Below are positions 2,896-59,128 of a stretch of DNA of 64,000 nt, one piece after another (position 1 is the first letter of the stretch; every line of letters begins with the position of its first letter). The notes under the pieces were generated by a model. That model saw only the letters and a program-made list of their open reading frames with translations, did not search any database and had not been told where the DNA came from. The stretch covers positions 506,274 through 570,273 of the forward strand of contig NW_015162514.1 in assembly GCF_001447785.1 (NCBI RefSeq), written 5' to 3'. A program made the position numbers and the translations under genes. The stretch comes from Gekko japonicus. Taxonomy: Eukaryota.

Positions 2896-3365
2896 TCCGC
2901 CCAAGGGGCTTCTACACCCAAATTTCAGCACAGGGGAGGAAATAAAGGCAAGGGAGAAAAATGGAAGCAGGAGGAGTGTTCTTTGTGGCTTGCTTTCTGC
3001 AGGGGACTAGACAACGTGAGCGAATGAGCTGAGCTGCGTAGGCAAGGCCTTTTTTTTCTGCCGTCAAATCACAGCAGCATGATGGTGATGACCCCGTAGG
3101 GTATTCTAGGCACGAGATATGCAGAGGTGGTTTGCCCTTGCCTGCCTCTGTGTAGTGACCCCAGACTTCCTTGGTGGCCTCCCATCCAAATACAGACCGG
3201 GGCCAACCCAGATCTGACAAGGGGTGGCCATAAGAATGAACAGCTTTAAAAGGGGATAAGACAGATTCATGGAGGAGAGGCCTAAATGGCTACTAGCCAT
3301 GGTGACTGGGGGGAACATGCACTAAGCCTCCGAATCCCAGAGCCAGGAGGCAACATCGGGAAAAG

Positions 3366-5270
3366 GTCTTCGCCTCTCTGCCCTGTTGTTGGCCCTCCAG
3401 AGGAACTGGTTGGCCACTGTGTGAGACAGGATACTGGACTGGATGGACCACTGGTCTGATCCAGCAGGGCTCTTCTGATGTTCTTATGAAGGCCTCAGCT
3501 TCTATGCCCTGTGGTTGGCCACTGTGTGAGACAGGATGCGGGACTAGAAGGACCCCTGGTCTGATCCAGCAGGGCTCTTCTGATGTTCTTATGAAGGCCT
3601 CGGCCTCTCTGCCCTGTAGTTGGCCCTCCAGAGGAGCTGGTTGGCCACTGTGTGAGACAGGATGTGGGACTAGATGGACCCCTGGTCTGATCCAGCAGGG
3701 CTCATCTGATGTTCTTATGAAGGCCTTGGCCTCTATGCCCTGTTGTTGGTCATCCAGAGGAACTGGTTAGTTACTGTGTGAGACAGGATACTGGACTGGA
3801 TGGACCACTGGTCTGCTCCAGCAGGGCTCTTCTGATGTTCTTATGAAGGCCTCAGCCTCTATGCCCTGTTGTTGGCCATCCAGAGGAACTGGTTGGTCAC
3901 TGTGTGAGACAGGTTGCGGGACTAGATGGACCACTGGTCTGATCCAGCAGGGCTCTTCTGATCTTCTTTTGTATGTCTCAATGNNNNNNNNNNNNNNNNN
4001 NNNNNNNNNNNNNNNNNNNNNNNNNNNNNNNNNNNNNNNNNNNNNNNNNNNNNNNNNNNNNNNNNNNNNNNNNNNNNNNNNNNNNNNNNNNNNNNNNNNN
4101 NNNNNNNNNNNNNNNNNNNNNNNNNNNNNNNNNNNNNNNNNNNNNNNNNNNNNNNNNNNNNNNNNNNNNNNNNNNNNNNNNNNNNNNNNNNNNNNNNNNN
4201 NNNNNNNNNNNNNNNNNNNNNNNNNNNNNNNNNNNNNNNNNNNNNNNNNNNNNNNNNNNNNNNNNNNNNNNNNNNNNNNNNNNNNNNNNNNNNNNNNNNN
4301 NNNNNNNNNNNNNNNNNNNNNNNNNNNNNNNNNNNNNNNNNNNNNNNNNNNNNNNNNNNNNNNNNNNNNNNNNNNNNNNNNNNNNNNNNNNNNNNNNNNN
4401 NNNNNNNNNNNNNNNNNNNNNNNNNNNNNNNNNNNNNNNNNNNNNNNNNNNNNNNNNNCTAGATGGACCACTGGTCTGATCCAGCAGGGCTCTTCTGATA
4501 TTCTTATGAAGGCCTCAATCTCTATGCCCTCTTGTTGGTCATCCAGAGGAACTGGTTAGTTACTGTGTGAGACAGGATGCTGGACTAGATGGACTATTGG
4601 TCTGATCCAGCTGGGCTCTTCTGATGTTCTTATGAAGGCCTCGGCCTCTATGCCCTGTTGTTGGTCGTCCAGAGGAACTGGTTAGTTACTGTGTGAGACA
4701 GGATGCGGGACTAGATGGCCCACTGGTCTGATCCAGCAGGATTCTTCTGGTGTTCTTATGAAGGCCTCAGCCTCTATGCCCTGTTGTTGGCCCTCCAGAG
4801 GAACTGGTTGGTCACTGTGTGAGACAGGTTGCGGGACTAGATGGACCACTGGTCTGATCCAGCAGGGCTCTTCTGATATTCTTATGAAGGCCTCAATCTC
4901 TATGCCCTGTTGTTAGTCATCCAGAGGAACTGGTTAGTTACTGTGTGAGACAGGATGCTGGGCTAGATGGACTATTGGTCTGCTCCAGCTGGGCTCTTCT
5001 GATGTTCTTATGAAGGCCTCAGCCTCTATGCCCTGTTGTTGGCCCTCCAGAGGAACTGGTTGGCCACTGTGTGAGACAGGATGCTGGACTAGATGGACCA
5101 CTGGTCTGCTCCAGCAGGGCTCTTCTGATGTTCTTATGAAGGCCTCAGCCTCTATGCCCTGTTGTTGGCCATCCAGAGGAACTGGTTGGCCACTGTGTGA
5201 GACAGGAGGCTAGACTACATGAACTATTGGTCTGATTTAGCAGGGTTTTTCTTGTGCTCTTATGTAACTT
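3366..5270 (+). repeat. 126-bp tandem repeat derived from a CR1 3' UTR (gap 3984-4458)
   Basis: TTCTTATGAAGG recurs at 3481, 3586, 3712, 3838, 4501, 4627, 4753, 4879, 5005, 5131; preceded by a CR1 ORF2 end at about 3220-3365. Confidence 0.92.
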
Positions 5271-8478: not shown

Positions 8479-9782
8479 AATCAGGCTGTTAAGAAAAAGT
8501 TTTCAGGGTGCGCCTTTGCTCTTTTTCGGGCTTCCGTCGCCATCTGGTGGGCAGCAAGGGCCATTTTTTTGTTCACGTGGGAAAGCATTTAAAAATCAGG
8601 AACTTTCACCCATCGTTCATGATGGAACTCCTTGGTCAAAATGCTTTCGACATTTGCCTTATCCCAGTCCCTCTCTCAGGAATTGGGACTGTTTGATTAT
8701 TTGGCCTCGTTTCCAGTGCGGAAATCCTCCACCGTTTCATGTTTTAATTCCCATATTTTGTATGGAGNNNNNNNNNNNNNNNNNNNNNNNNNNNNNNNNN
8801 NNNNNNNNNNNNNNNNNNNNATCCTCGACATGTCTTTTCTGTACATATGCACCAATAAAACCCCACAAAATAGCAATCTCTATGTGCCAGAATGTACGAT
8901 AACTACTGCAAACTGTGCATATTGCAAACTTATATTCAATGCAATAACAATATATCAGACTATGTTTTACAGAAAACCGAAGCCAATGATGTCAATGAAG
9001 ATGGATGTGGACGACCTCCCCCGGAGTTGATATTTGTTTTGAGGTGTCTTTTTCATACATCAAACCTCCTAGCAGCCATTTTCCCCAGGACAACTGATCC
9101 CCGTTGCCTGGAGATGTGTTCTAATTCTGGGAGATCTCCAGACCCCACCTGAAGGTTGGCAACCGCCAGGGGTCATTTTGTAGGAAAAGAGGTGCAGGAG
9201 CTCATTAACATAACTCATTAGCATAACTTATTTGCATATGCCACGCCCCCTGACCTCACCGGAAGTGTGTCAGAAGGCAACACTCACCGCTCAGGCTCCA
9301 CTGGACTGTTTTGGATGGCTAGCTATTGGGGGGGAAGGGAACGTGCAGATCTGTCCTCACAGAGGAGGGAGAGCTTGTACCTGAATAAAACTCGGTCTTA
9401 AAGGTGCCACTGAACTGTTTTGGACAGGGGGAGGCGGGCTCTGCAACTTACCTGGCTGCATCTTGCTCTGACTGAGGGCTGCTGGGAGCAGGGGGTGGGG
9501 CTTGTTGCATGTGCCTGACCCCTGGGCTCTTTATTGCCGGAGCACCGCTCCTGTGCGCTCCTGCAGGAAATGACTAACACAAAAAACATCTTGCTACTAG
9601 ATGGACAATCACATCACATTTAGATTTTTGTTTCTAGTGTGCTTTATAAATGTACATATGTATATCCGTGGTTCCTATTCCCACACATGGAACCCTTCTT
9701 GTCTGTATCGTTTGTAAGCCATTCTCAAATGGCCTGCAGTTTATTCCTCATACTACACGGTCTCAGGCAGAGGTCTTTCACA

Positions 9783-14192: not shown

Positions 14193-14610
14193 CAGGGGTC
14201 ATTTTGTAGAAAAAGAGGTGCAGGAGCTCATTAGCATAACTCATTAGCATAACTTATTTGCATGTGCCATACCCCCTGACCTCACCGGAAGTGTGTCAGA
14301 AGGCAACACCCACCGCTCAGGCTCCACTGGGCTGTTTTGGATTGCTAGCTATTGGCGGCGGGGGGGGACAGGCAGATCTGTCCTCGCAGAGGAGGGAGAG
14401 CTTGTACCTGAATAAAACTTGGTCTTAAAGGTGCCACTGGACTGTTTTGGACCAGGGGGACGGGGGGAGCTCTGCAACTTGCCTGGCTGCTTCTTGCTCT
14501 GACTGAGGGCTGCTGGGAGCAAGGGGTGGGGCTTGTTGCATGTGCCCGCCCCCTGGGCTCTTTACTGCCGGAGCTCCGCTCCTGTGCGCTCCTGCAGGAA
14601 ATGACCCCTG
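14193..14610 (+). mobile_element. Complete hAT MITE family A (also 9167, 23128; variant subfamily at 19427, 20490 -, 22370)
   Basis: CAGGGGTCATTT / AAATGACCCCTG termini; perfect TSD CTCCAGAG; the 22370-22710 copy has TSD GCTTAGAT. Confidence 0.9.
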
Positions 14611-15228: not shown

Positions 15229-15930
15229 TTTGTTGTTGTTGTTCAGTCGCACAGTCGAGTCCGACTCTTCGCGACCCCATGGACCAGCTCACGCCAGGCC
15301 TTCCTGTCTTCCGCTGTCCTCTGAAGTTGGCTCAATTTCATGTTCGTTGCGACGATGACACTGTCCAACCATCTCATCCTTTGCCGTCCCCGTCTTCTTT
15401 GACCTTCAATCTTTCCCAGCATCAGGGTCTTCTCCAGTGAGTGCTCCCTTCTCATTTGGTGGCCAAAGTATTTGAGCTTCAGTTTCATTATCTGGCCTTC
15501 CAGGGAACAATCAGGGTTGATTTCTTTTAGGATTGACTGATTTGATCTCCTTGCAGTCCAAGGGACTCTCAAGAGTCTTCTCCAGCACCATAGTTCAAAA
15601 GAATCTATTCTTCGGCGCTCGGCCTTCCTTATAGTCCAACTCTCGCAGCCATACATGACTACTGGGAATACCATTGCTTTGACCATGCGGACTTTTGTTG
15701 GCAGGGTGATGTCTCTGCTTTTTATCATGCTGTTTAGGTTCGCCATCGCTTTCCTCCCAAGGAGCAGGCGTCTTTTAATTTCATGGCTGCTGTCACAGTC
15801 TACGGTGATCTGGGATCCCAGGAACGTGAAGTCTGTCACCACTTCCACGACTTCCCCTTCTATTTGCCAAGGAGTGATGGGGCCGGATGCCATGATCTTA
15901 GTTTTTTTGATGTTGAGCTTCAAGCCCACT
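15229..15930 (-). mobile_element. RTE-BovB LINE, 5'-truncated
   Basis: Open frame VGLKLNIKKTKIMASGPIT...MYGCESWT...HGVAKSRTRLCD*; (CAA)n tail. Confidence 0.97.
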
Positions 15931-17504
15931 TCAGGGTTTTTAATCATTGCTTGGGTTTGATGCATTTGTCAAACGACAGCTGCAATACCAAGCAGTGTTC
16001 CCTCTAAGCTGAGTCAGTGTGAGCCAGCTCACAGTTTTTTAGCCCCTGGCTCACACATTTTTGTCTTCGCTCAGGAAGGATAGGGCTCCAGACCAAACTA
16101 ATTTATGCGGTAGCCAAATCGCTTGCTTACAACTTTAATGCCAGTCGCTCACGAAGTAGGGTTTTTGCTCACAGGACTCCACAGCTTAGACGGGAGCATG
16201 GATTCCAAGTCATCTTCTCCTAAACAGGCTGTTTACAGAAGGGAATCAGGAAACAAGCAATGCATTGGTACATTATGTCCAGGCACATGGGTTCGTATAT
16301 GCATGCTAAATAAATAAATCAGCCCATCGAATAGCTCAACCTCAAGGCACCTGATGAAAGAAGCGTTACTGTACTTCTACGTACATCAACAAACCTTTCT
16401 AAAAAGCCTCCTTGAAAGACAAAATTAAGACTGGGAGCCAATTTTTACGTCAAGGACAGGTCCCTGAAACCAGACAGCCACAGCTAGAGTTGCCAAGTCT
16501 GCCCCCCCGCCGCCCTGGCCACCAACAGGGAATGGGGGAGGGTTGAGTTGCCAGATCCAGGTTGGGAAACTCCTGGAGATTTGGGGATGGAACCTGGGGA
16601 GGACAGGGACCTCAGTGGGGTACAATGCCATAGAGTCCACCCTCCGAAGCATCCATTTTATCCAGGGGAACTGATCTTTGTCATCGGATGATCTCTAGTT
16701 CTGGGGGATCCCCAGGTCCCACCTGGAGACTGACATCTATAGCCACAGCAGCAAAACAGAACCTCCATGTTCAGAGGCAGTCTATCTCAGAATCCCATGT
16801 CCTGGAGACAAACATCAGCAAAATGGTCTTGTGTGGGCTGTCTTAATTAAATCGCTTTCATTCCCAAGACTGAAAAGTGTTTCCCTTCCGGCTAAATCGC
16901 ACCCCAGGCAGAAACGTTGCCTAGATCTCGGCATCTAGAGGCCATTGGTGGAATGCAGACTGGCAAGGACTTCCGTGTGTGCAGGGAAGGGGGGGGGGAA
17001 CACAGACAGGCCCAGATCCTATTAACCATTAGCGGCCAAGAACTCCTCCCTCCTTGGAGAAGCCTTTTAGTCATTAAGTAAACAGCTCTTTGCACAGCCG
17101 AGTTGAACGCACTGAAAGAGAAGAGATTGCTTGCTTTCCATCTGAACATTCCTGGACCTTTAGTGACGGTCAAACTGGGACTGCTGGCTGAACTCCTCTT
17201 TAGAAGAGTTGGTCGCTTTTCACCACCCGGAGGTACGGAAATATCTTTTCTGTACTCACTGAAGCTTTCTGTTTGCTAACAACTTTGCCTTGCTACTCCA
17301 CAGAGACGCATGTGGTCCACACGGAGAGCGTTATGAGTGACCGGCGAAAGGACCTGGAGGGTAGAGGAGACACGGGGGTCCCTGAACTGAGTCCTGTTTG
17401 GGAGTCAGCTCTCATTTGCAAAGTGCATTTGGGGAACCGACAGCACCGTTCAGCCGCTACCTTCCATTAACTTCAGAAAAGCTCAAATCGCCAGAGGGAC
17501 AGAC

Positions 17505-17511
17505 ATGACCG
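17505..17511 (+). CDS. ANKRD65: Candidate coding mini-exon of ANKRD65 (ATG ACC G)
   Basis: gacATGACCG|GTAAGA: purine at -3 and a strong donor. Phase 1 joins in frame at an acceptor at 18568/18569, giving MTGTRVEAELQRKWMVL. Inference only. Confidence 0.45.
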
Positions 17512-17897: not shown

Positions 17898-18275
17898 CAG
17901 GGGTGTCTAACTCATTTCGTATGAGGGCCAGATCTAACATAAATGAGACCTTGTTGGGCCGGGCCATGTGTGTCATAAAATGTAATCCCAGGTAGCGGAT
18001 ATTTTTTTTACTTAAAATAAAAACATGCTTAAAACATTAGCTCTGTAAGCTGCAAACCTACTTTTGATTTATTGACATTCACCACAGAGATCTCAGGCTC
18101 AGAGTTCTGAGTCGAGACATGAAATGGCTGAGTGACTAAGAGAGTCTGGCAAAGCAAGCCATGATGCAGCAGCAGCAGCAGAACTGGAAGCAGGAGATGG
18201 CCAGTTCCACTGCGGGCCTGATGGAAGCCCTCCGGGGGCCTGATCCGGCCCCTGGGCCGCACGTTTGACACCCCG
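17898..18275 (+). mobile_element. hAT-Charlie-like MITE (related copy 24920-25835)
   Basis: CAGGGGTGTC / GACACCCCG termini; perfect 8-bp TSD ATCTAAAG. Confidence 0.85.
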
Positions 18276-18603
18276 ATCTAAAGAGTTGTTATCGAGAGAT
18301 CAAGCTATTGGATTCGTGAGTCCCAAAGGATGTCTGGAAAGTCCCATGATGCTAGGGTTGCCAGCTATAGGTTGAGAAATTCCTGAATATTTGGGGGGTG
18401 GAGCCTTGGGAGGGCGGGGTTTAGTAAGGGTAGGGGCCTCCACAGGTAGCCATTTTCTCCAGGGGAACTGATCCCTAATCTCTGCCTCTCGTTGAGCCCA
18501 TACAACCAGCTTTGCTCCTGGTCCTCAGGAAGGGGGTTAAAGGCCTTCTTGTCCTTTCTTCTCTGGAGGTACGAGAGTCGAGGCTGAGCTCCAGAGGAAG
18601 TGG

Positions 18604-18794
18604 ATGGTGCTGGGCGAGGAGAGGATGCTAGACGGACGTCCGGCCATGAATGCCTGCAGAGTTAACCCCAAGGAGAAGACTTTGGTTCTCGTCCCTGCAC
18701 AGGAGAGTTGGGAGGAGCTCCATCACGCAACTGAGAACGGCAACGTCCGCCTGGTGAAGCAGCTCTTACAACAAGGCGCCGGGACCGAGTGCAG
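18604..18794 (+). CDS. ANKRD65: ANKRD65 coding exon A (may start at 18569)
   Basis: MVLGEER...WEELHHATENGNVRLVKQLLQQGAGTEC, first ankyrin repeat; donor AG|GTGCGG, phase 2 matches next exon. Confidence 0.85.
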
Positions 18795-19803
18795 GTGCGG
18801 AGGAGGCAGGCAGGTGTGGTTGTACCATCTCGGCTCGCAAGAAGCCAGGGCAGGGCTGGGATTGGTGTCGTGTTGCCAGCTAGGGTTCTCAACTCCAAGT
18901 TGGAAAAGTCCTGGAGATTTTCAGGGTGGAGACTGGGGAGGGCAGGGTTTGGGTAGGGGAGGGACCTCAGCAAGGTATAACGCCCTGGAGGGCCGGTTTG
19001 GTGTCGTGGTTAAGAGCGTGGACTCTAATGTGGGAGAACCGGGTTTGATTCCCCACTCCTCCACATGCAGCTGCTGGTGTGACCTTGGGCCAGTCCTAAG
19101 TTCTCTCAGAGCTGTTCTCCCAAGGGCAGTTACTGAGAGAGCTCTCTCAAACCCACCTACCTCACGGGCAATGCTCCCTCTAAGCTGTGGAGTCTTGTAA
19201 ACAAAAATTCTACTTTGCGAGCGACTGGCATTAAAGTTGTGTGTGAACAATCTGGCTATTGCATAAATTAGTTTGCTCTGGAGCCCATCCTTCCTGCGCT
19301 GAGACAAGAAGGCGTGAGCTGGAGGCTAAAAAACTGTGAGCTAGCTCACACTAACTCAGCTTAGAGAGAACCGGGCTCACGGGGTGTCTGTTGTGAGGAG
19401 GGGAAGGGGAAGGAGATGGTAAGCCGCAGGGGTCATTTCGTAGAAAAAGAGCTAGGGGAACTCATTAGCATAACTCATTAGCATATGCCACACCCCCTGA
19501 CATCAGGGGCCCGGCGGTGGACCTGCAAGGCCAGTGGGAGTGCGAGGAAGCCCTGCCAAGGCCCTCCCTGGCCCCAGGCAGGCAGGGGTGGGGAGAGGCG
19601 GGGAGGAAGCAACTTACCCTCCCTCTTCTCCTGCCTCCTCCTGGCTGAATGAGGGCTGGAAGCGAGGCGGGCGGAAGCAGGGGGCGGGGCTTCATCATGT
19701 GCCCCGCCCCCCCTGTGAGCTTCAGAGGGAATACCGTGGAATCGGCACACTTTTAGCCTCGTGTGGAAACACCTTTGAGTCCTGTTTTCCCAACCCTTTC
19801 CAG

Positions 19804-20353
19804 AGACGAGAACGGGTGGACTCCGTTGCACTTGGCTTCCTTGAACGGCTATGCCGCTCTGGTCAGATTCCTCGTCCAGCGTGGCGCCGTGGTCCATGCC
19901 CACAACAGGGCCTCCTACACGCCGCTGCACCATGCCGCTTGGAGCGGCCACACCCAAGTGGCGGAGTTCCTCCTCGCTCGGGGCACGCCAGTGTCTGCGG
20001 CGACAGAAGGATACCTGACCCCGCTGCACTGCGCGGCTGCCAACGGACACCTCCTGATGGTCCAGTTGCTCCTGCGGCAAGGGGCGGATCCTGCTGCCGC
20101 GGACGCCAACCGGTGGGCGGCCTTACACTGGGCAGCCGCCAACAACCAGCTGCACATCATGGACTTTCTGATGTCCCAGGGCATAGGTCCGGATCTCGGT
20201 AGCAAGGAGGGAGTCACGCCGTTACATGTGACAGCCGAGGCAGGACAGATCGAGGCTCTGCACCGCTTGCTTGCGAAGGGGGCCAAGGTGGACGTTCAGG
20301 ATTCTTTGGGAAGGACGCCGCTTTCTATTGCTTCTAGCAACGGCCATGCGGAG
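19804..20353 (+). CDS. ANKRD65: ANKRD65 coding exon B, 550 nt, tandem ankyrin repeats
   Basis: ttccag|A GAC GAG; DENGWTPLHLASLNG...TPLHHAAWSGH...GRTPLSIASSNGHAE; donor GAG|GTAAGG. Confidence 0.95.
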
Positions 20354-23300
20354 GTAAGGCTGCAAACTCCCCTAAATAATCTGTGTATTACATTTGCGCC
20401 CTGCCCCAGATGGCCCAGGTTAGCTTGGTCTCATCGTGGTCCTTTTTGCGCTAGACTTTTCATCCTGGTTCAGCGCTGTCTTTTACCCGCAGAGGTCATT
20501 TCAGGGGGGATCGCGGGGGATCACAGCCCCCCCAGGTCAGGTACGGGGGGCGGGGCACATGACGAAGCCCTGCCCCCTGCTTCCGGCCGCCCCGCTTCCG
20601 GCCCTCATTCAGCCAGGAGGAGGCAGGAGAAGAGGGAGGGTAAGTTGCTTCCTCCCTGCCTCTCCCCACCCCTGCCTGGGGCCAGGGAGGGCCTTCGCGG
20701 GGCTTCCTTGCACTCCCGCCGGCCTTGCAGGTCCTCCGCCGGGCCCCTCATGGGGCTCGGTAGTGGAGCTGCAAGGCCGGCGGTGGTGGCCGGGACCGTT
20801 GGGGGTGGGGTGTGTAACATTTCTGTCTTAGTTTAGAAAGGATGGCTCCAGAGCAAACTAATTTATGCAGTAGCCAAATTGCTCGCTCACGACTTTAATG
20901 CCAGCAGCTCACAAAGTAGAATTTGCGTTCACAAGGCTTAGAGGGAGCATTGCTTACATACAAGTAAGCATGTTTAGGATTAGTTTTCAAGATGCTTCTC
21001 TGGTGGCTGCATGGAAGACCTTGTTTGTTTCCTTACAAAATACCATGCAGCTGGGGTATATGGATCCTGTTTTGCTTTCCCTCGATCCAGAGTGACCCTA
21101 GATTTCAGTTTAGAATTTTTCACTCGGGTTCAATCCTCCCTGCCCCTTTCCCACCATACCTAGGACTTTAAACCCAGGTTTACTGTTCGCAATGCAGAAT
21201 TTATAACCCAGGGCAGGCAAATTGGAGCGGGACAAAATTAGGGCCAAAAAGTACAGATAAACAGAGATAACTGCAGGGTAAAATGGTCATGAGTCCAACA
21301 CAGAGAAAACCCGGGGTGAGGTCCAAGTGCGGAACGGGCCCATATCTCGGAAGCAAAGCAGGGTCACCCCTGATTAGTATTTGGAGCAGGGGTCATTTCC
21401 NNNNNNNNNNNNNNNNNNNNNNNNNNNNNNNNNNNNNNNNNNNNNNNNNNNNNNNNNNNNNNNNNNNNNNNNNNNNNNNNNNNNNNNNNNNNNNNNNNNN
21501 NNNNNNNNNNNNNNNNNNNNNNNNNNNNNNNNNNNNNNNNNNNNNNNNNNNNNNNNNNNNNNNNNNNNNNNNNNNNNNNNNNNNNNNNNNNNNNNNNNNN
21601 NNNNNNNNNNNNNNNNNNNNNNNNNNNNNNNNNNNNNNNNNNNNNNNNNNNNNNNNNNNNNNNNNNNNNNNNNNNNNNNNNNNNNNNNNNNNNNNNNNNN
21701 NNNNNNNNNNNNNNNNNNNNNNNNNNNNNNNNNNNNNNNNNNNNNNNNNNNNNNNNNNNNNNNNNNNNNNNNNNNNNNNNNNNNNNNNNNNNNNNNNNNN
21801 NNNNNNNNNNNNNNNNNNNNNNNNNNNNNNNNNNNNNNNNNNNNNNNNNNNNNNNNNNNNNNNNNNNNNNNNNNNNNNNNNNNNNNNNNNNNNNNNNNNN
21901 NNNNNNNNNNNNNNNNNNNNNNNNNNNNNNNNNNNNNNNNNNNNNNNNNNNNNNNNNNNNNNNNNNNNNNNNNNNNNNNNNNNNNNNNNNNNNNNNNNNN
22001 NNNNNNNNNNNNNNNNNNNNNNNNNNNNNNNNNNNNNNNNNNNNNNNNNNNNNNNNNNNNNNNNNNNNNNNNNNNNNNNNNNNNNNNNNNNNNNNNNNNN
22101 NNNNNNNNNNNNNNNNNNNNNNNNNNNNNNNNNNNNNNNNNNNNNNNNNNNNNNNNNNNNNNNNNNNNNNNNNNNNNNNNNNNNNNNNNNNNNNNNNNNN
22201 NNNNNNNNNNNNNNNNNNNNNNNNNNNNNNNNNNNNNNNNNNNNNNNNNNNNNNNNNNNNNNNNNNNNNNNNNNNNNNNNNNNNNNNNNNNNNNNNNNNN
22301 NNNNNNNNNNNNNNNNNNNNNNNNNNNNNNNNNNNNNNNNNNNNNNNNNNNNNNNNCCTGAGCTTAGATCAGGGGTCATTTCGTAGAAAAAGAGCTAGTG
22401 GAACTCATTAGCATAACTCATTAGCATATGCCACACCCCCTGACATCGGGGGCCCGGCGGTGGACCTGCAAGGCCAGCGGGAGTGCGAGGAAGCCCCGCC
22501 AAGGCCCTCTCTGGCCCCAGGCAGGCGGGGGTGGGGAGAGTCGGGGAGGAAGCAACTTACCCTCCCTCTTCTCCTGCCTCCTCCTGGCTGAATGAGGGCT
22601 GGAAGCGGGGCGGCCGGAAGCAGGGGGCGGGGCTTTGTCATGTGCCCCGCCCCCCTGCACCTCACCCGGGAGAACTGTGTTCCCCCGCATTACCCCCGAA
22701 ATGACCTCTGGCTTAGATAAAAATCTGTGAGCTGGAGGCTAAAAAACTGTGAGCTAGCTCACACTAGCTCAGCTTAGAGGGAACACTGGTTGGGAGGCCT
22801 CCAAGGAAGTCCAGGGTTGCTAGGCAGAGGCGGGCCGTTATCGCCAGCCGCCTCTGCACGTCTCTGGCCTTGAAAACCTGACAGGATCGCCATCAGACAG
22901 CTGTGACTTGGAGCCACTTTAGACACATTACACAGGCATCCTGCTTTTCCAAATAAGAACGGATTCTGGCACTCCTTTCTGCTTCAGCCGGGAAGGCAAT
23001 GATGGGGAGGTGACGGGAGAGCTACGCTCGGGCATCCCTGCTGCAAAAAAAAACGTTCAGGTAGTTATTGTTCCTTGACTACCTACAATTTGACTCTGGT
23101 CCAGTCTTGCCGAACGTTCCGTGAAACCAGGGGTCATTTCGTAGAAAAAGAGGCACAGGAGCTCATTAGCACAACTCATTAGCATAACTTGTTTGCATAT
23201 GCCACAGCCCCTGACAGCACCGGAAGTGTGTCAGAAGGCAACACCCACCGCTCAGGCTCCACTGGACTGTTTTGGATTGCCAGCTATTGGGGGTGGGGGG

Positions 23301-25037
23301 GACGTGCAGATCTGCCCTCACAGAGGAGGGAGAGCTTGTACCTGAATAAAACTTGGTCTTAAAGGTGCCACTGGACTGTTCTGGATTGGTAGCTTATGGG
23401 GGGGGGGCACACACATGCAGATCTGCCTTCACAGAGGCGGGAGAGCTTGTACCTGACGGCGGGCTGGGGGGGGGGGGGGCCGGCACTTACCTTGTTGCTT
23501 TTTNNNNNNNNNNNNNNNNNNNNNNNNNNNNNNNNNNNNNNNNNNNNNNNNNNNNNNNNNNNNNNNNNNNNNNNNNNNNNNNNNNNNNNNNNNNNNNNNN
23601 NNNNNNNNNNNNNNNNNNNNNNNNNNNNNNNNNNNNNNNNNNNNNNNNNNNNNNNNNNNNNNNNNNNNNNNNNNNNNNNNNNNNNNNNNNNNNNNNNNNN
23701 NNNNNNNNNNNNNNNNNNNNNNNNNNNNNNNNNNNNNNNNNNNNNNNNNNNNNNNNNNNNNNNNNNNNNNNNNNNNNNNATCCTCTGCTCACACACCCTC
23801 CCGCTGCCCGTGCTCACAGCCGCCTGCAGCCAGGGTTCCCTCTAAGCTGAGTTAGTGTGAGCTGGCTCACAGTTTTTTTTTTTAGCCTCTGGCTCACACA
23901 TTTTGGTCTCCGCTCGGGAAGGAGGGCTCCAGAGCAAACTAACGCAGTAGCCAAATCACTCGCTCACAGCTTTAATGCCGGTAGCTCACAAAGTAGAATT
24001 TTTGCTCACAAGACGCCACAGCTTAGAGGGGGCATTGCCTACAGCCCTTTCTCCAGTGGCGCTGGGCAGTGCTCGCAGCAGGGAGCATGAGTGGGGGAGC
24101 GCCAGCAATGGAGTGTTCAGGGAACATGAGCAACAGCAGGGTCTACTGGAAGCTCTGGGCCCTGGTGGCTATATTAGGCGACACACCCCTAATGTAGCCA
24201 ATCCTCCAAGAGCTTACAGAGCTCTTCTTACATAGGCTACTGTAAGCTCTTGGAGGATTGGCTACATTACGGGTGTGTCGCCTAATAGGCAAAGGAGTTC
24301 CTGCTACAAAAAGAGCCCTGTGACATACGCGGATGCCGGCCAGGATGGATTCCAAGACAGCTGTTTCTACCTTTTCTGCAAGGGAAGGTAAAGGTAAAGG
24401 TTCCCTTGCTCGAAAGCCAGTCGAATCCGACTCTAGGGTTGCAGTGCTCATCTCCGTTTCAAAGCCGAAGAGCCAGCGCTGTCCGAAGATATTTCTGTGG
24501 TCATGTGGCCGGCATGACTAAACACCAAGGCGCACGGAACACTGTTACCTTCCCACCGAAGTGGTACCTATTTATCTACTTGCAATTTCTTGCTTTCGAA
24601 TTGCTAGGTTAGCAGGAGCTGGAACTAGAGATGGGAGCTCACTCCATCATGCGGCACCCGGGTCTCGAACTGCTGAACTACTGACCTTCCACAGCCTGCA
24701 GTTCAGCGTCTTAACCACTTGAGCCACAGCAGCAAGGGAAGACAGGCTAGCTATTGCCCTGGGAGAACCAGGGCCTGAGCAGAGTGATAGCTTCAGGTCC
24801 ACTGACACTGGTAGGGTCGCCAGCCTCCAGGTGGGGCCTGGAAATCGCCAGGAGTTACAATGGATCTCCAGACTAGTTCCCCCTGGAGAAAATGGGTGCT
24901 TTGGAGGATAGACTCTACGCAGAGGTGTCGAGCTCATTTGTTACAAGGGCCAGGTCTGACATAAATATCCCTTTGTTCGGCTGGGCCATGTGTGCCGTGA
25001 AATGTGATGCCCGGTACCAGAGATATAAACGTTATAA

Positions 25038-25302
25038 ACCAGTTTGGCGTAGTGGTTGAGTGCGTGGACTCTAATCTGGGAGAACCAGGTTTGATTCCCC
25101 AGTCCTCCACTTGCAGCTGCTGGGTGACCTTGGGCAAGCCATAGTTCTCTCAGAGCTGTTCTCTCAAGGGCAGTTCTGGAAAGAGCTCTCTCAGCCCCAC
25201 CTACCTCACAAGGCGTCTGTTGTGGGGAGGGGAAGGGAAAGGAGTTTATAAGCCACTCTGAGACTCCAAGTGAAGAACGGGGTATAATCTCTTCTTCTTC
25301 TC
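25038..25302 (+). mobile_element. tRNA-derived SINE with (CTT)n tail, Squam3-like (also 6565 -, 13033 -, 18990 +, 27100 -, 29478 -, 33063 +, 34498 +, 54560 +)
   Basis: Head ccagtttggcgtagtggtt...ggtttgattcccc with A/B boxes; tail tcttcttcttct. Confidence 0.85.
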
Positions 25303-26046: not shown

Positions 26047-26481
26047 ATTGTGAAATTACTCCTCCAAGCTGGGGCAGACGTGAACGTGACCGACCGCTAC
26101 GGCTGCTCCGCGCTCCACAAAGCCGCGACCGCAGGACACCTGCCCATTGTCTGCCTCTTGGTAGAGGGAGGCGCCACCGGAATTAATGGAAGGGACGATC
26201 TGCATCTGACCCCGCTGCACCGAGCGGCCAGTAGCGGTCACGTCGGCATCACCAGCTGCCTCCTAGACCACGGAGCCGACGTCAACGCAGCTGGCTGGCT
26301 GGGCAAGACGCCGCTGCACCTTGCGGCGGAAAAAGGACACTACTCTTTGATGGACCTTTTAGTGAGCAAGGGAGCGGACCGCACACGCAGATCGTGGTGG
26401 AAGGAGACAGCCAAAGCGCTGGAAGCTGAGAGGCCTGGTTCAGGAGACATCTCCGGCCAAGCCATCCTTGGGCCCCCCTAG
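26047..26481 (+). CDS. ANKRD65: ANKRD65 last coding exon (protein about 391 aa from ATG 18604)
   Basis: ctttag|ATT GTG AAA; GCSALHKAA..., AGWLGKTPLHLAAEKGH resembles human ANKRD65 TGWLRKTPLHLAAERGH as recalled; TAG at 26479-26481; synteny with MRPL20 and CCNL2. Confidence 0.93.
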   Translation: MVKLLLQAGADVNVTDRYGCSALHKAATAGHLPIVCLLVEGGATGINGRDDLHLTPLHRAASSGHVGITSCLLDHGADVNAAGWLGKTPLHLAAEKGHYSLMDLLVSKGADRTRRSWWKETAKALEAERPGSGDISGQAILGPP

Positions 26482-29400
26482 TTTTCTCGTATCCGTGCCC
26501 CGCACTACCTCCTGACTCTGCCCCCCGGCTCGTCCGATCCAGTGTTGATGGACCGTATTTTAAATGTGTTTATAGTTTTGCAATGTCTAACTATTCCGTT
26601 ATAATAACACCAACACAGTGTTGTTGTATATAGGTACGTTTCCATCCAACCGTATTATGAATTAAGGGTGGCTCAGAGGTGAAGACGTTGAGCTGCAGAC
26701 CGGAAGTTCGGTGGCTCAGCAGTTTGAGACCCGAGTGCTGTGTGACAGAGTGAGCTCTCGTCTCTGGCCCCAGCTCCTGCCAACCTAGTGGTTCGAAAGC
26801 AAGAAACTGCAAGTGGATAAATAGGTACCGCTTCGGTGGGAAGGTGACAGCGTTTCGTGCGCCTCGATGTTTAGTCATGCTGGCCACGTGACCACGGAAA
26901 CATCCCCGGACAGTGCTGGCTCTTTGGCTTCCAAACGGAGATGAGCACCGCCCCCTAGAGTTGGATTCAACTGGCTTTCGAGCAAGGGAAACCTTTACCT
27001 TTAGTTTATATTATGAATTATATGCGAAGATTATTCATTCGTTCATTCATTCATTCATTCACTTTCTATCCCATTCTCCCTGCACAGCAGGCTCAGAGCG
27101 GGGAGGAGAAGGAGGAGGAGGAGATTGGATTTATACCCCGCCCTTCACTCGGAGCCTTAGAGCAGCTCACAATCTCCTTTCCCTTCCCCTCCCCACAACA
27201 GACACCCTGTGAGGTAGGTGGGGCTGAGAGAGCTTTCCATAACTGTCCTTGAGAGAACAGCTCTGGGAGAACTATGACTTGCCCAAGGTCATCCAGCAGC
27301 TGCAAGTGGAGGAGTGGGGAATCAAACCCGGTTCTCCCAGATTAGAGTCCACGCACTTAACCACCACACCAAACTGGCTCTCTATAAACATAGAGAACGT
27401 TCAAATCCACATTTAGCCACGAAGCTCTGATCGTGAGCCAGACCTTCTCTCTCGGCCTCACCTACCTCGCAGGGTGGTTGTGAGGATGGCAGGGGGACAG
27501 CCATGCATGCCTTGAATTCCCTGGAGGCTGGGTTGGGGAAATCAAACACAGGCGTGGTTAATAGATAAGAGCAAAGTGAAAATGGAGTACAGAAGAAAGG
27601 GAAGGGCAGCGGCAGAGAAGTTCAGGAAAGGCACGGAGTCTGCACTCCTAGGAAGGGACATTTTTGATGTATTGGTGCCAGGAGAGTCCTGCCAATTATT
27701 ATATAAATAATTGAATAGTGGGTGCCAAAGATCTAATTCTAAAATGCACTCCCTTAGTGTATGGCTGCTGGCACTGCTCCTCAGCATAATATGCCACCAA
27801 TCAGAAGGCAAAGCCCGGGTCCCGCCCACACCACAACTGCTGCGACAACCTGGTCTTTTGCATATGGAAGCTGACTGGACTTCACTCCATTCCACACCTC
27901 AAACTCCCTCCCCCCGCAAGGCAGTTGGAATGTCAGTTGCATATGGAATCTGCTGTATTCTGGTGGTGTGCAGGTCCCAGATTCATGTTTTAAAAGCAGA
28001 CTAACACTGTTTGCCCAAAGCCAGAGCACTCTCCCAGAGCCTCTTTCTAGATCCCATTGTATTTATTTCCACAACGGGCCTTATTTCTAGTTATATATAA
28101 ACAAAGGAAATTCACCCTTGGCATGAGTGAGCAAGCATGTGGCTATGCTGTAGCCCTAGATAACTGGACCACATTGTGGGATTCAATTATTCACAATTAG
28201 GTGACCTACTTGAACTAATTGAACAGAAAGGTGGGGGGGGGGAATGGAGACACAGGCAGACGGTAAGGCAATTCCATAATAGGATAGGCATTTACCGCAA
28301 ACAAAGATGCTGCAGTGTGATCCCTGGGTCTAATTATCACTTGCTCATCTTGAGAATAAACTGTACAGAGAAAACCACTAAGGAGTTTTTTCAGGCACCT
28401 TAAAATAATAAACTGTGTATTGCCGGGGGGGGGGGGGATTCTCTAATACATTATTGTGGGTGAAGCTTTCATGGACTACAGCCCACTTTATCTGTGCATG
28501 AAATGTTACCTTCCGTGGGCAGGCGCATACATTGAGACGTAGGTCTTAACAGAAACAGGGCCCAGTCGGAAAGGGGAACATAAGAACATAAGAGAAGCCA
28601 ATGTTGGATCAGGCCAATGGCCCATCTAGTCCAACACTCTGTCACACAGTGGCCAAAAATACCAGGTGCCATCAGGAGGTCCAGCAGTGGGGCTAGGACA
28701 CTAGAAGCCCTCCCACTGTTGCCTCCTCCCCCCAAGCACCAAGTATACAGTGCTTTCAAACTGCTAAGTTGGCAGGACCTGGGGCCAGAGACGAGAGCTC
28801 ACTCCACCACGTGGCACTCAGGTCTTGAACTGCCAAACTACAGACCTTCTGGCCTGCAGTTTAGCAGATACCGAGAAAAATCTGTGGAAATCACTACAAA
28901 TGATTAAAAAACAAATATATATTTAATCAGCTATTTTTTCCAACTAATTATACTAATATACTGTTTCTTGACCATCATGTACTAGATGAAGTTCTTAAAG
29001 CGAACTAATAGAAAAATGAACTGGTTCTCAAAATTTAACAGGTAAACTGACCAAGTCCAACAAATATTTCAATGCAACCTCATATATGGCAGCATTAATC
29101 TAAAATAACATTCAGTGTGGATTGGGTCCCGAAGTTCAACAGGTAAGTTTTCGAGATTCACCAAAATCCAACAAGTAGCTCAATCCAATTTCATGTACGG
29201 GATCATTAGGTCAGTCCAACCTCATGAATGGGGTCATATCCTTTACAGATTCCTTCCTGAAGCGCGGTATGTTGACATTTATAGACTGTAGCACCAGGCT
29301 CAAACCAACTTCCTACACAGGCACAAACCTTACCAACAAAGATGTCATCCAATTTGATGCGCAAGCTTCACAATGCTAACGGATTGCTAGCTTTCCCCCG

Positions 29401-37542: not shown

Positions 37543-38305
37543 AGGAAACACTTTGGTTTTGCAAAACGTAGCCTCAGGTTGTAAAGCGAAGCAAGTCGGA
37601 TCTCTGATGGGGGTGGGATCGTCCTTTCTTAACTTTGAAGATTATAACCCACTGTTTGTACAGGAGCCTACGTAGCAATTAAAATTTAATAGGGCCTGTA
37701 TTTTCAACACCGGGACAGGAGATCCAGCAAGTTTGTCTTCAGCAAAGAACTTTCCCCTCCTAGTGTGAACAGAGGCTTGAACAGAGCCCTTTGGCCACTT
37801 CATTTGCTCATCACGATTTCCCTCTCATTTAAGATTCAAATGCCAAAGCCTCCCTTGTTCACCTGCAGAAGAGGAGGTTATGGAGTCCATTGTCTACATC
37901 CTGGCTTGAGAGAAAGCAGTTTAAATGCATCAAAAGCTATGTCGGGAGTCGGGGAAGAGCAGATTAATTCCTCCAGATGCAGATCCACAATTAAGACTGC
38001 CTTATGAGTCTTTCTGCACTATATATTCTTTTAATTAAAAGGACTCTTTAAATTGTTTATGGCTACTGTTGTGTCCTTTGTCTCTCTGGTATAGAGCCAG
38101 TGAAACTCTGGTTTGTGGGATGAATTTGGGTGTGCAAGTGGAGATGTTCCATCTCCAGGGATGTGATGTGGGTTGAGAAACTTCCACAAGCTAGTGGCAG
38201 AGAGCAGGAAGCAGGCAAAATCAAGGAAATTCCTATCCTGGGTTTTGTTGATCTTTTAGTGGGGTTAGGAAGTGTGTATATTTGAAATACAGCATTGTGT
38301 GTGGA

Positions 38306-38595
38306 AAAGAAATCAACCCTGACTGTTCCCTGGAAGGCCAGATAATGAAACTGAAGCTCCAATACTTTGGTCACCAAATGAGAAGGGAGCACTCACTAGA
38401 GAAGACCCTGATGCTGGGAAAGACTGAAGGTCAAAGAAGACGGGGATGGCAAAGGATGAGATGGTTAGACAGTGTCATAGATGCAACGAACATGAAGTTG
38501 AGCAAACTTCAGAGGACGGCGGAAGACCAGAAAGCCTGGCGTGATCTGGTCCATGGGGTCGCGAAGAGTTGGACTCGACTGCGACTGAACAACAA
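38306..38595 (+). mobile_element. RTE-BovB 3' fragment
   Basis: EINPDCSLEGQIMKLKLQYFGH...; TSD ATTGTGTGTGGA at 38294-38305 and 38596-38607. Confidence 0.95.
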
Positions 38596-39382
38596 ATTGT
38601 GTGTGGAGAGGGAACAGATTCTTGTCTGTTTGAGGTCTTTGAAATTTTAAAGTGTGGGTACCTTGAAGAAAAAAAATAGAAATTGAGCACCTCAAGCTTC
38701 CATGTTTCGGAAGGTGGGTATGGTCTGTTAAGTGCTGATAGTTACATCTCTTGTGAAGAGGGCCAGTCACTTGAAAAGAAACGGGCTCAAGCATACACAA
38801 AGCCTTTCCTTACTGAGCAGGAGTTGCTTCCTTTTGTTTCTAGATTGTTTTTGGTATAGTTGCCAAAATGGAATTGTTAACCTGACACAATTAACACACG
38901 CACAGGCCAGGCGCTCAGTTGAATAGAGGGGGGGAAACTTTATTCCAGGAATAACGGGGTCAAAGGCAAAACGATGACACAGGGTGGGCTTTTATACCCC
39001 TACACAAACAACTTTAAAAGTTGCATTTTTGTTCTGTTCCCATGGCTAACTTCCGCATGTCAGCAAGCAAGCAGATAAGCTTCTGATCTCATTTGAGACA
39101 TTCTGAAGACCCTTTGTTCTTCTCCCCACTCCCCATATTCTCTCTGTTCCATCAGTATCATGTTTCTGGGCCATGTGCAGAGTGCCTTACTTTTGAAAGT
39201 GAGGTTTTTAAAAATGTGTGTTATAGAAAAGAGGAATAAATATTGAATACACCCCAGTTTGATTTATTTTGCCATCAAGTCAGAGCTGATTTAGGACACA
39301 TCTGTCAGGTTTTCCAGGGCAGGAAGATGTTCAAAGGTAGTTTTGCAATTGCCTGCTTCTGTGTTTGAGCCCTGGTATTCCT

Positions 39383-40205
39383 TGATGAATCACAAGCTGG
39401 AGTTAAGTTTGCTGGGGAAAAGATCAATAACCTCAGATATGCAGACGATACCACTCTGATGGCAGAAAGTGAAGAGGACCTCAAGAGCCTCTTGCTCAGG
39501 GTAAAAGAGGAGAGCGCAAAAGTGGGCTTGAAGCTCAACATCAAAAAAACTAAGATCATGACATCTGGCCTCATCACTCCTTGGCAAATAGAAGGGGAAG
39601 TCGTAGAAGTAGTGACAGACTTCACGTTCCTGGGATCCCAGATCACTGCAGATGGTGACTGCAGCCATGAAATTAAAAGACGCCTGCTCCTGGGGAGGAA
39701 AGCGATGGTGAACCTAAACAGCATGATAAAAAGCAGAGACATCACCCTGCCAACAAACGTCCGCATGGTCAAAGCAATGGTATTCCCAATAGTCATGTAT
39801 GGCTGCGAAAGTTGGACTATAAGGAAGGCCGAGCGCCAAAGAATAGATTCTATTGAACGATGGTGCTGGAGAAGACTCTTGAGAGTCCCTTGGACTGCAA
39901 GGAGATCAAATCAGTCAATCCTAAAAGAAATCAACCCTGACTGTTCCCTGGAAGGCCAGATAATGAAACTGAAGCTCAAATACTTTAGCCACCAAATGAG
40001 AAGGGAGCCCTCACTGGAGAAGACCCTGATGCTGGGAAAGATTGGAGGTCAAAGAAGACGGGGACGGCAAAGGATGAGATGGTTAGACAGTGTCATCGAT
40101 GCAACGAACATGAAATTGAGCCAACTTCAGAGGACGGCGGAAGACAGGAAGGCCTGGTGTGATCTGGTCCATGGGGTCAACTGTGCGACTGAACAACAAC
40201 AACAA
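39383..40205 (+). mobile_element. RTE-BovB LINE fragment with RT YADD motif, inserted in a 5S-SINE
   Basis: INNLRYADDTTLMAESEEDLKSLL... uninterrupted frame; (CAA)n tail. Confidence 0.97.
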
Positions 40206-40689
40206 AATCCCTTGGAGATCTCCCATCCAAATAAATTAGCCTGGGTTAATCCAGGTCAGGGCTTTATTTACATCAAAATCTTCCCAAAGGAGTGACCATC
40301 TAACCTAGCCAGTCAGATTAAAATGTAGGCCATGCTATTTTAATTGCTGTGATCTTCCTCTTTGAACAGGACTGGAACTCTGTTTCCAAATTAAAACACA
40401 TTTGGGATCATTAGCCCGGAGCAACCTTTATGGGGAAGTCCTGGTTGAATTTTCCCATAGAGATAATCAACCTGTGGTTGGGTTGTACCATTGGAAACGG
40501 TAGGGGAATGTTTAAACCATTGAACGCGCCAGTATGTTAAATATTTCCTTCCACGCAGGAAATTAGCATGATAGGGAGAAGCGTTGCGGGTTCGACTTCT
40601 CTGTAGTATGTTAATTTTATATGTGGACGGATATGGGGAGATGTGTGAAGGCCTCTGGATGGCACAAACCACCCCTATAATAGAACGTG

Positions 40690-41680
40690 GTACAGCCCAA
40701 CGTCGTGAGAGGGGGGGGAAACAGGCCTTTCGTAGGCGGCCGTTAGTGGGTACGCGCGGTGGACGCTGGGAGCTCTCGTCATTCCCCTTGACTAACCCTC
40801 TCACCCGCCTCGCCTAGTTTCGGAGGGGGGGAGGGGGGGAAATCAAATTCCTGGCCGCTGCGTCACAATGAGGAACCCCCGCGTCCAATGGGAACGCGGC
40901 GGCCAGTTGCGGGCAGCCAATGGCGAGGAAGAGGAGCGACGAGAGGGCGGAAGCGAGGGGGAGGGCATAAAGGACGAGGCGATTCAGTCCGTCCGTGTGT
41001 GAGGTGAATCCGCGACGTCGTCGTCGAGACAAGATGGCGGCGGCGATAATGGCGGCGGCGGGAGGAGGTGGCGGAGGAGGGGTAGCGGCGGCGGCAGCGG
41101 CAGCAGCCCTGGCGGGGCTCGGCCCGGGGATGCCGCCCGGCCCGGGTCCGTCGTCGTCCTTCCCCTCCGGCGGCCTCCTGGTCCCCCCTCAGCCGCCCCC
41201 TCCGGGCGCCGTCCGGATCGGCGACCGCCTGTACTCGGGGGTGCTGATCACGCTGGAGAACTGCCTCCTCTCGGACGACGCGCTCCGCTTCACGCCTTCC
41301 ATGGGCAGCGGCCTGGAGGCCGAGACCGAAGGGCAGCTCCGCATCACCGGCTGCGAGCTCATCCAGGCCGCCGGCATTCTGCTCCGGCTTCCTCAGGTAG
41401 GCCGCGGGAGGGGGAGGGGGGAGAGGAAAGGCCTCGGCGGGAGACTCGGCCCGGGCGGAGGGGGAAGGGCGCGGGAAAGGGCCGCGGAGAGGCAAAGCCG
41501 CGGGGGTGTGTGTCTGTGGACGGAGTCGGGGGCCTGCTCTCGCCGGAGGAAGGGGGAGAGCCGGGACCGCCGCCATGAGCTCCTGGGCGGAAACGGCGGA
41601 TTGAAACAATAAATGCCGGAGACGCGAAGGGAAAAATACGGGACGAGGGTCTCCTGCTGGGTGGGTTAGCGGGACTTATT
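40690..41680 (+). promoter_or_regulatory. CCNL2: CCNL2 CpG-island promoter
   Basis: Two CCAAT boxes 32 bp apart (40885, 40917), CRE-like TGCGTCAC near 40859, CGGAAG, CATAAA at 40966, YY1-type AAGATGGCGG over the start codon. Confidence 0.85.
41034..41396 (+). CDS. CCNL2: Cyclin L2 exon 1
   Basis: [12 protein letters not shown]...[18 protein letters not shown]...[20 protein letters not shown]|GTAGGC. Confidence 0.97.
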
Positions 41681-58770: not shown

Positions 58771-59128
58771 GAAGAGCGAGAGCTATTCCCCCTCCAGTGG
58801 CTCCAAATCTCACAGTCGCTCAAGAAGCCGCAGCGATTCCCCCCCGCGGCAGTTCAACCACAGCAGCTCCAGCTACAAAAGCTCCAAGGTGAGGAGCTAC
58901 AAAAAGGCCCAGAGCTACAAGTACGCCTCTCCCAAGCAGCGGAAATCGCGCAGCAGGAGCTCCTCTCGGTCGCGGAGCCGCTCGCGGGAACGTTCAGACC
59001 ACTCCGGGAAATACAAGAAGAAGAGCCACTACTATAGGGATCAGCGGCCCGAACGGCCCCACTCGTACGAGAGGCCGAGCCACCGCTATGACAGGGACCA
59101 CCCCGGCCACAGCCGGCACCGGAGGTGA
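58771..59128 (+). CDS. CCNL2: Cyclin L2 exon 11 (RS domain; 549 codons in total if the exon 9 stop is ignored)
   Basis: gacag|[21 protein letters not shown]...[11 protein letters not shown]. Confidence 0.97.

What the first reader, a model, noticed from the sequence alone, without database searches (positions are those of the whole stretch)
19169..20952. Two nested pairs of inverted MITEs bracket the 550-nt ANKRD65 exon (circRNA-type layout)
Seen: 19501-19713 and 20545-20752 are reverse complements (about 205 bp, roughly 90% identical by eye, GC-rich), about 90 nt before the acceptor and about 190 nt after the donor of exon 19804-20353. A second family forms an outer inverted pair (19169-19290 vs 20830-20952). 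A third copy of the inner family (22370-22710, +) could pair with the 20545 copy inside the downstream intron. Known: inverted intronic repeats such as primate Alus promote back-splicing and ADAR editing, and intra-intron pairing competes with it. Inference: DNA-transposon MITEs may drive a 550-nt circular RNA or exon skipping here; skipping would join phase 2 to phase 0 and frameshift.
Basis: partly seen in the sequence, partly recalled or inferred. Interest (0 to 1): 0.7.

Follow-up and report, generated by a model that had tools for sequence, protein, structure and literature searches.

The report
Inverted transposons flank a reptile exon
Copies of two abundant small DNA transposons lie head-to-head around an exon of a reptile ANKRD65 gene and are predicted to pair briefly in the RNA, but they likely landed there independently, and the RNA assemblies examined show the exon spliced normally, no circular form, and only one unconfirmed hint of skipping.

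Summary
The layout is real. Arms 19501-19712 and 20545-20752 match at 195 of 212 columns, 91 nt before and 191 nt after a 550-nt ANKRD65 exon. An outer pair matches at 81%. Both families are hAT-type MITEs with 8-bp target duplications; the inner one has at least 16,454 genomic copies. The inner arms belong to different subfamilies and are no more alike than random copies (94.1% vs median 94.1%), so they likely inserted independently. Geometry this tight is locally rare, yet 54-650 such pairs are expected genome-wide. With the third copy included, folding gives the downstream arm to it (260 vs 0 expected pairs). RNA contigs show linear splicing in 3 of 5 runs and no back-splice piece in 5 of 5, at low depth; raw reads missed the exon. 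One run hints at skipping (letters unseen). New here: second versions of both flanks in the assembly lack two deletions that trim the arms, so the layout is likely polymorphic. Circularisation by inverted DNA-transposon repeats is published (human GCN1L1), and the scan noted a similar layout in another genome. An ordinary member of a known kind, with a possible allele test.

The parts
17302..17511 (+). Upstream exon of ANKRD65 holding the likely start codon (ATG at 17505)
   Evidence: X2 record 8 joins it to the next exon; gives a 405-aa frame
18569..18794 (+). Coding exon upstream of the bracketed exon (E2), ends in phase 2
   Evidence: Splice ends; RNA contigs X1-X4
18988..19426 (+). SINE-like repeat interrupted by B1 and then by A1; its tail is missing in the window
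   Evidence: Self-BLAST pieces 18988-19168 and 19376-19427; label SINE recalled
19169..19375 (+). B1: full-length family-B MITE, outer upstream arm, 8-bp target duplication CTCACGGG
   Evidence: Sequence; same insertion site at other loci
19427..19712 (+). A1: family-A MITE, short subfamily, right 55 nt lost; pairing arm 19501-19712
19713..19803 (+). 91-nt intron end between A1 and the acceptor; deletion junction at 19712/19713
   Evidence: L127 has 57 nt of other sequence upstream of 19713; X2 record 12 stops matching at 19713
19804..20353 (+). 550-nt ankyrin-repeat exon (E3) of ANKRD65, phase 2 to phase 0
   Evidence: Pfam Ank E 7.6e-41; 64% to a snake ANKRD65; spliced contig
20490..20815 (-). 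A2: family-A MITE, long subfamily, left end lost; arm 20545-20752 pairs with A1; 20490-20544 can pair only with A3
   Evidence: L134 holds an A-type left end with a 6 of 8 target duplication
20817..20953 (-). B2: partial family-B MITE, outer downstream arm, fused to A2 by a deletion
   Evidence: Full-length in L134, with 113 nt between it and the A end
21387..21400 (+). A-type left terminal repeat at the edge of the assembly gap 21401-22357; a further copy may lie in the gap
   Evidence: Sequence; inverted repeat I17
22370..22710 (+). A3: full 341-nt family-A MITE, 8-bp duplication GCTTAGAT, inserted in a family-B copy; predicted winning partner of A2
23831..24040 (-). B4: full family-B copy, a second inverted partner for B1
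   Evidence: 174 of 211 to B1; cofold
26047..26481 (+). Last coding exon (E4); a skipped transcript would stop at 26053
   Evidence: X9 loose end matches its first 28 nt; 57% to the snake ANKRD65 C-terminus

Best explanation
Two abundant hAT-type MITE families lie inverted on both sides of the 550-nt ANKRD65 exon; they likely inserted independently, are predicted to form only a short-lived RNA hairpin before a third copy takes over the downstream arm, and the exon is spliced linearly in the RNA contigs seen, so any circle or skipped RNA is likely a minor by-product. Steps: (1) shown: arms, terminal repeats, target duplications, copy number. (2) inferred: separate insertions into a repeat-dense region with preferred target sites. 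(3) predicted: A1 pairs with A2 as soon as A2 is transcribed, looping out 832 nt with both splice sites. (4) predicted: about 1.5 kb later A3 appears, binds the 55 nt of A2 that A1 cannot cover, and displaces A1, leaving a hairpin inside the downstream intron. (5) shown at low depth: linear junctions. (6) inferred: two deletions have since shortened the inverted repeat in the window's version, i.e. erosion rather than retention.
For: Family A: 8,142 + 8,312 exact 22-mer matches, control 0; perfect 8-bp duplications at 22 of 30 best loci. A1-A2 identity 94.1% equals the median of 1,754 random pairs; 52% of pairs are as alike or more. A2 groups with the long subfamily (up to 98.9%), A1 and A3 with the short one. 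B1-B2 86.9% vs median 87.1% of 946 pairs. Family B: 45 copies in 195 kb of this contig. Looser inverted pairs (>=120 nt, >=80%, within 5 kb) bracket 417 of 1,478 simulated 550-nt placements here. Fold with A3: A2:A3 260 expected pairs, A1:A2 0; net cofold -235 vs -209 kcal/mol. Linear E2-E3 junction in X1, X2, X9; depth sums at both exon ends leave no room for a back-splice piece in X1-X4. L127 and L134 lack the two deletions.
Against: The tight geometry is locally rare: 0 of 5,171 overlapping simulated placements had >=200 nt, >=90% arms within 300 nt, and 0 of 65 sampled A copies had an inverted A neighbour within 1 kb. A sits next to or inside B three times within 4.5 kb here, against 1 of 65 sampled copies elsewhere (those contigs are B-poor where sampled). 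Without A3 the fold pairs both A1:A2 and B1:B2 (213 and 120 expected pairs), and splicing may act before A3 is made. X3 record 18 fits a skipped transcript. The RNA test is weak: contigs at depth 3-9, library type unknown, raw reads had 0 reads on the exon, and the sampled animals may carry another version of the flanks.
Confidence: 0.68

Rival explanations
1. The A1:A2 (plus B1:B2) stem forms co-transcriptionally and lasts long enough to give a measurable 550-nt circle and/or E2-to-E4 skipping, at a level that differs between the trimmed and untrimmed versions of the locus.
For: Predicted stem of 213 + 120 pairs with an 80-bp stacked run; arms 91 and 191 nt from the splice sites; inverted DNA-transposon repeats suffice at human GCN1L1 (PMC4201285 section 15); reverse complementary matches promote both back-splicing and skipping (PMC8330042 abstract). 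X3 records 18 and 21 both end 28 nt past their exon, the pattern simulated for skip plus linear forms.
Against: No back-splice piece in 5 of 5 contig sets. A3 wins at equilibrium. The 28-nt tail was not seen letter by letter and could be a cryptic exon in a repeat. A human isoform lacking this exon is recalled (no call); if right, skipping predates these MITEs. The same paper notes that stronger hairpins can inhibit circles.
Confidence: 0.2
2. The tight layout is partly an assembly product: the A1/19713 and A2/B2 junctions are mis-joins in a gapped short-read assembly, and A1 may lie further from the exon or be absent from most chromosomes.
For: Two small contigs give different sequence at exactly these junctions. 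The only RNA record that reaches 19713 from the intron side stops matching there (X2 record 12). No listed record bridges either junction. Loss of the right end was seen in 0 of 61 sampled copies and of the left end in 5 of 61. A 957-N gap lies nearby.
Against: The A1 junction has only 3 nt of overlap, more like end-joining repair than an assembler overlap (inference). L127 and L134 differ from the window by 4 of 412 and 36 of 552 substitutions, so they are other versions, not missing pieces of the same one. A similar B-A fusion occurs at an unrelated locus (L140).
Confidence: 0.09
3. The arms have been co-opted as a selected splicing switch for ANKRD65.
For: Two nested pairs close to both splice sites; a skipped form would stop in the last coding exon and could escape junction-dependent decay (inference).
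Against: No homogenisation of the arms; both arms carry deletions and other versions differ; young high-copy families; no relatives could be compared.
Confidence: 0.03

Closest known systems
Circularisation driven by reverse complementary intronic repeats (inverted Alu pairs at ZKSCAN1, HIPK3, EPHB4; PMC4201285, passages and section 15 read)
   Same: Inverted repeats in both flanking introns, close to the splice sites, around one long exon.
   Different: Repeats here are hAT-type MITEs in a reptile; no circle is shown; a stronger partner lies inside the downstream intron.
Human GCN1L1 circle supported by inverted DNA-transposon repeats (PMC4201285 section 15; its Supplemental Fig. 9 not seen)
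   Same: Same class of repeat proposed as the pairing element.
   Different: Shown in a plasmid assay there; here only predicted, with young arms (94% alike) and two families.
C. elegans zip-2 reverse complementary matches (PMC8330042, abstract read)
   Same: One pair of matches could promote both back-splicing and skipping.
   Different: There the 13-nt match is conserved across five nematodes; here the arms are recent insertions that vary between versions.
Non-autonomous hAT elements / MITEs (family features recalled)
   Same: Short, non-coding, terminal inverted repeats starting with CA, 8-bp target duplications, high copy number.
   Different: No Repbase or Dfam name could be assigned; no transposase partner was sought.
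Instability and depletion of inverted Alu pairs (PMC6961855, passages read)
   Same: Close inverted pair with deletions ending in both arms; direct pairs outnumber inverted ones in the sample (13 vs 3 at >=200 nt, >=85%, <=1 kb, tandem arrays included).
   Different: One locus only; a causal link between the inversion and the deletions is not shown.

Membership tests
hAT-type MITE (family A) | Terminal inverted repeats | tested here: met
   13-nt terminal repeats at both ends; both present in 56 of 61 copies away from gaps
hAT-type MITE (family A) | 8-bp target-site duplication | tested here: met
   Perfect in 22 of 30 best loci, 7 of 8 in 4 more; found for 19 of 24 left-divergent copies
hAT-type MITE (family A) | Short, high copy number | tested here: met
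   341-342 nt short subfamily; at least 16,454 exact motif matches
hAT-type MITE (family A) | Ends shared with an autonomous hAT transposase element | not tested
   No search for the autonomous partner was made
hAT-type MITE (family B) | Terminal inverted repeats and 8-bp duplication | tested here: met
   B1 flanked by CTCACGGG on both sides; like flanks at loci L142-L148
Repeat-driven exonic circRNA | Reverse complementary matches in both flanking introns | tested here: met
   195 of 212 and 116 of 143 columns
Repeat-driven exonic circRNA | Across-exon pairing outcompetes pairing within an intron | tested here: not met
   Equilibrium fold: A2:A3 260 expected pairs, A1:A2 0; kinetics not modelled
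Repeat-driven exonic circRNA | Back-splice junction in RNA | tested here: inconclusive
   None in 5 of 5 contig sets at depth 3-9; 0 exon reads in 3 of 3 raw-read runs
Repeat-driven exonic circRNA | RNase R resistance; loss on deleting an arm | not testable with these tools
   Needs experiments
ADAR-edited intronic duplex | A-to-G changes in uniquely placed reads on the arms | tested here: inconclusive
ANKRD65 | Best named match and gene order | tested here: met
   64% to snake and 50% to otter ANKRD65 vs 29-45% to unrelated ankyrin proteins among 26 hits; next exon 57%; cyclin-L-like neighbour (name recalled)

The most novel reading that the evidence does not exclude
A segregating natural experiment: young hAT MITEs make a reptile ANKRD65 exon circularise or skip, and deletion alleles retune it. 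The trimmed version moves A1 closer to the acceptor but hands A3 a 55-nt toehold on A2; the untrimmed version would have longer arms. The circle would carry a 318-codon frame that includes the whole ankyrin frame of the exon. It would be a MITE-driven, allele-specific circRNA in a reptile, which my searches did not find in print.
Probability: 0.12. Interest if true: 0.6.

Novelty: new member of a known kind. Interest (0 to 1): 0.27.

Why it matters
If a circle or arm-dependent skipping were shown, it would extend repeat-driven back-splicing to reptile hAT MITEs and offer a locus where natural versions differ in arm length and spacing, so across-exon versus within-intron competition could be tested allele by allele. 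As it stands it is one of probably tens to hundreds of such layouts in a MITE-rich genome. The more solid by-product is a case of an inverted repeat trimmed by deletions in both arms.

Tried and rejected
Raw RNA reads X10-X12 (about 3-12% of each run read): 0 reads on the exon, so no test. No listed holder is on record as RNA; X9, X1, X2 and X3 are read as RNA because their contigs are spliced. Editing: arms swamped by other copies. A direct genome-wide count of close inverted pairs was not obtained; it was estimated from samples. Gene conversion or local hopping between arms: rejected. One composite transposon carrying the exon: rejected, because the arms come from different subfamilies, A2's intact end faces the exon, and each element has its own target duplication. 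A2 as a truncated short copy with a local fold-back: rejected, the 20716-20783 palindrome is part of the long subfamily. Search for annotated skipped isoforms with E2 found nothing (weak); a search with E3 against longer proteins was crowded out by ankyrin-2. Second versions of the A1 left flank, E2 and the A3 flank were not found, so A1's presence in the L127 version is unknown; the one match of an A end plus A1's target sequence is another locus. One search used a start for E4 that was one base off; its protein lengths and contig simulation were discarded and redone. Literature searches on ANKRD65 with circRNA or isoforms, gecko or reptile circRNA and gecko hAT elements gave nothing on this locus in the held library.
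Full report
Observation. Local alignment confirms the inner arms (19501-19712 vs 20752-20545, 195 of 212 columns), the outer arms (19168-19310 vs 20953-20821, 116 of 143) and the third copy (22449-22710 vs 20747-20490, 237 of 263). The exon 19804-20353 has canonical ends and encodes ankyrin repeats. Its best named match is a snake ANKRD65 at 64%, and the next exon matches the same protein at 57%. The coding model 17505-17511, 18569-18794, 19804-20353, 26047-26481 gives 405 aa; skipping gives 79 aa with a stop at 26053. The genome is a 2.49-Gb reptile assembly in 191,500 contigs; that its repeats look gecko-like is recalled.

What the arms are. Family A is a 341-342-nt element with 13-nt terminal repeats and perfect 8-bp target duplications at 22 of the 30 best loci, the anatomy of a non-autonomous hAT element (family features recalled). 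One 22-mer from its interior occurs 16,454 times, the control 0 times. There are two subfamilies: A1 and A3 are short; A2 belongs to a longer one and extends to 20815. A1-A2 identity over gap-free columns is 94.1%, the median of 1,754 pairs among 65 copies taken from the first 100 places listed. Family B is about 205 nt, with an 8-bp duplication at B1 and 45 copies in 195 kb of this contig; B1-B2 identity is 86.9% against a median of 87.1%. Neither pair shows conversion or a common local origin, so I infer four separate insertions.

Is it more than chance? In 393 kb from three contigs there are 31 inverted pairs of >=120 nt, >=80%, spacer <=2 kb, and one, this one, at >=200 nt, >=90%, <=1 kb. 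Simulated 550-nt exons in non-repeat sequence were bracketed that tightly in 0 of 5,171 overlapping placements, but loosely (>=120 nt, >=80%, within 5 kb) in 417 of 1,478 on this contig. No sampled A copy had an inverted neighbour within 1 kb (0 of 65), but 4 of 60 loci held two or three copies, one of them three within 4.1 kb (those four stretches were widened on purpose from the list). Random placement of 16,454-57,000 copies predicts 54-652 inverted pairs within 1 kb genome-wide. The same SINE sites take B at many loci and both A and B at L140, which points to preferred targets. The threefold A-B adjacency here remains only partly explained.

Predicted RNA structure. Folding 19100-21400 pairs A1:A2 (213 expected pairs, longest stack 80) and B1:B2 (120). 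With A3 included (19400-22800, gap shortened), A2 pairs with A3 (260 expected pairs) and not with A1 (0); 43 of those pairs lie in the 55 nt of A2 that the trimmed A1 cannot cover. I infer a transient across-exon stem that is displaced once A3 is transcribed, about 1.5 kb later if the gap size is right. These are equilibrium predictions at 37 C; kinetics and proteins are not modelled.

RNA evidence. Raw reads X10-X12 gave 0 reads on the exon. Contig set X9 holds one 925-nt contig joining E2, E3 and E4 with no back joint. In X1-X4 the tables are cut, but the depth bins can be summed. At 19730-19839 the listed records account for all depth (X1 1.13, X2 3.08, X3 2.3, X4 0), and likewise at 20280-20389, while a 20-nt head in X2 is counted at 18740-18849. 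So no back-splice piece of that size was laid. Linear E2-E3 is direct in X1, X2 and X9. A k=31 simulation gives this pattern for a skip junction beside a partly covered linear one. A cryptic exon inside a repeat would also fit and the letters were not shown, so I put skipping in X3 at about even odds. Depth is 3-9, library types are unknown, and the animals differ from the window (7 of 209 letters in the upstream exon), so absence of a circle is weak evidence.

Second versions of the flanks. Contig C96880 (L127) matches 19713-20124 at 408 of 412 but has 57 nt of other sequence upstream, a microsatellite like a SINE tail plus about 30 nt. X2 record 12 also stops matching at 19713. Contig C28533 (L134) matches 20817-21369 at 89% and has a full B2, 113 nt of spacer and an A-type left end whose flank matches A2's other flank at 6 of 8. 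The window therefore carries two deletions, one trimming A1's inner end and one fusing A2 to B2. Such losses are uncommon: right end 0 of 61, left end 5 of 61. The simplest reading is a derived haplotype in which the inverted repeat has been eroded. L134's 6.5% divergence (36 of 552) is high for an allele, so a local duplicate is possible, and a mis-join cannot be excluded without long reads. Whether A1 is on the L127 version is unknown.

Comparison with what is known. Liang and Wilusz (PMC4201285; passages and section 15 read, supplement not seen) state that inverted DNA-transposon repeats suffice for circularisation at human GCN1L1, that inverted repeats do not guarantee a circle, and that stronger hairpins can inhibit. 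PMC8330042 (abstract) links such matches to both back-splicing and skipping. PMC7038940 (passages) covers competition among pairs, and PMC6961855 (passages) the depletion of inverted Alu pairs. Searches (listings; one passage) found nothing on this locus or on MITE-driven circles in reptiles; the library lacks most subscription papers.

Verdict. The locus has the layout of a repeat-driven circRNA exon but is not shown to be one: the competition test fails at equilibrium and the junction test is inconclusive. The most likely state is an incidental, transient hairpin with mainly linear splicing (0.68); measurable arm-driven circle or skipping 0.2; partly an assembly product 0.09; selected switch 0.03. 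New member of a known kind, interest 0.27.

Noticed in passing
window 18232-18315: X3 record 18 joins this stretch to 18569, with GT at 18316: a likely alternative upstream exon of ANKRD65, overlapping a repeat.
   Followed up: no
L142-L148; window 19161-19383: Family B sits at the same site of the SINE-like repeat at many loci (40 of 40 scored matches cover most of the composite): a target hot spot or a composite subfamily.
   Followed up: partly
L140 (G000:C2853:201053-204071): Unrelated locus with B and A in the same two SINE sites as in the window and a deletion fusing B to A.
   Followed up: partly
L134 vs window 20817-21369: 6.5% substitutions spread evenly over repeat and unique parts: an unusually divergent allele or a local duplicate.
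   Followed up: partly
window 21051-21340: A further repeat family, 78-83% to 38 other scored loci, possibly a PIF/Harbinger-like element (label recalled).
   Followed up: no
window 23128-23385, 9167-9424, 14193-14451: A third subfamily sharing family A's left end but with a different interior, about 92% alike.
   Followed up: no
window 24172-24287: Near-perfect 48-nt inverted repeat with a 20-nt loop inside another MITE-like element in the downstream intron.
   Followed up: no
window 24389-24727 vs 26668-27003; 25039-25287 vs 27131-27377: Two more inverted pairs (84% and 90%) bracket the last coding exon.
   Followed up: no
window 40971-41612 and 58745-59128: Open frames resembling the first exon and the RS-rich tail of cyclin L2, the known neighbour of ANKRD65 (name recalled).
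   Followed up: no
window 3293-5264: Tandem array with a unit of about 126 nt, interrupted by a gap.
   Followed up: no
window 15243-15968, 38252-38650, 39369-40295: Fragments of an RTE/BovB-like LINE reverse transcriptase (label recalled).
   Followed up: no
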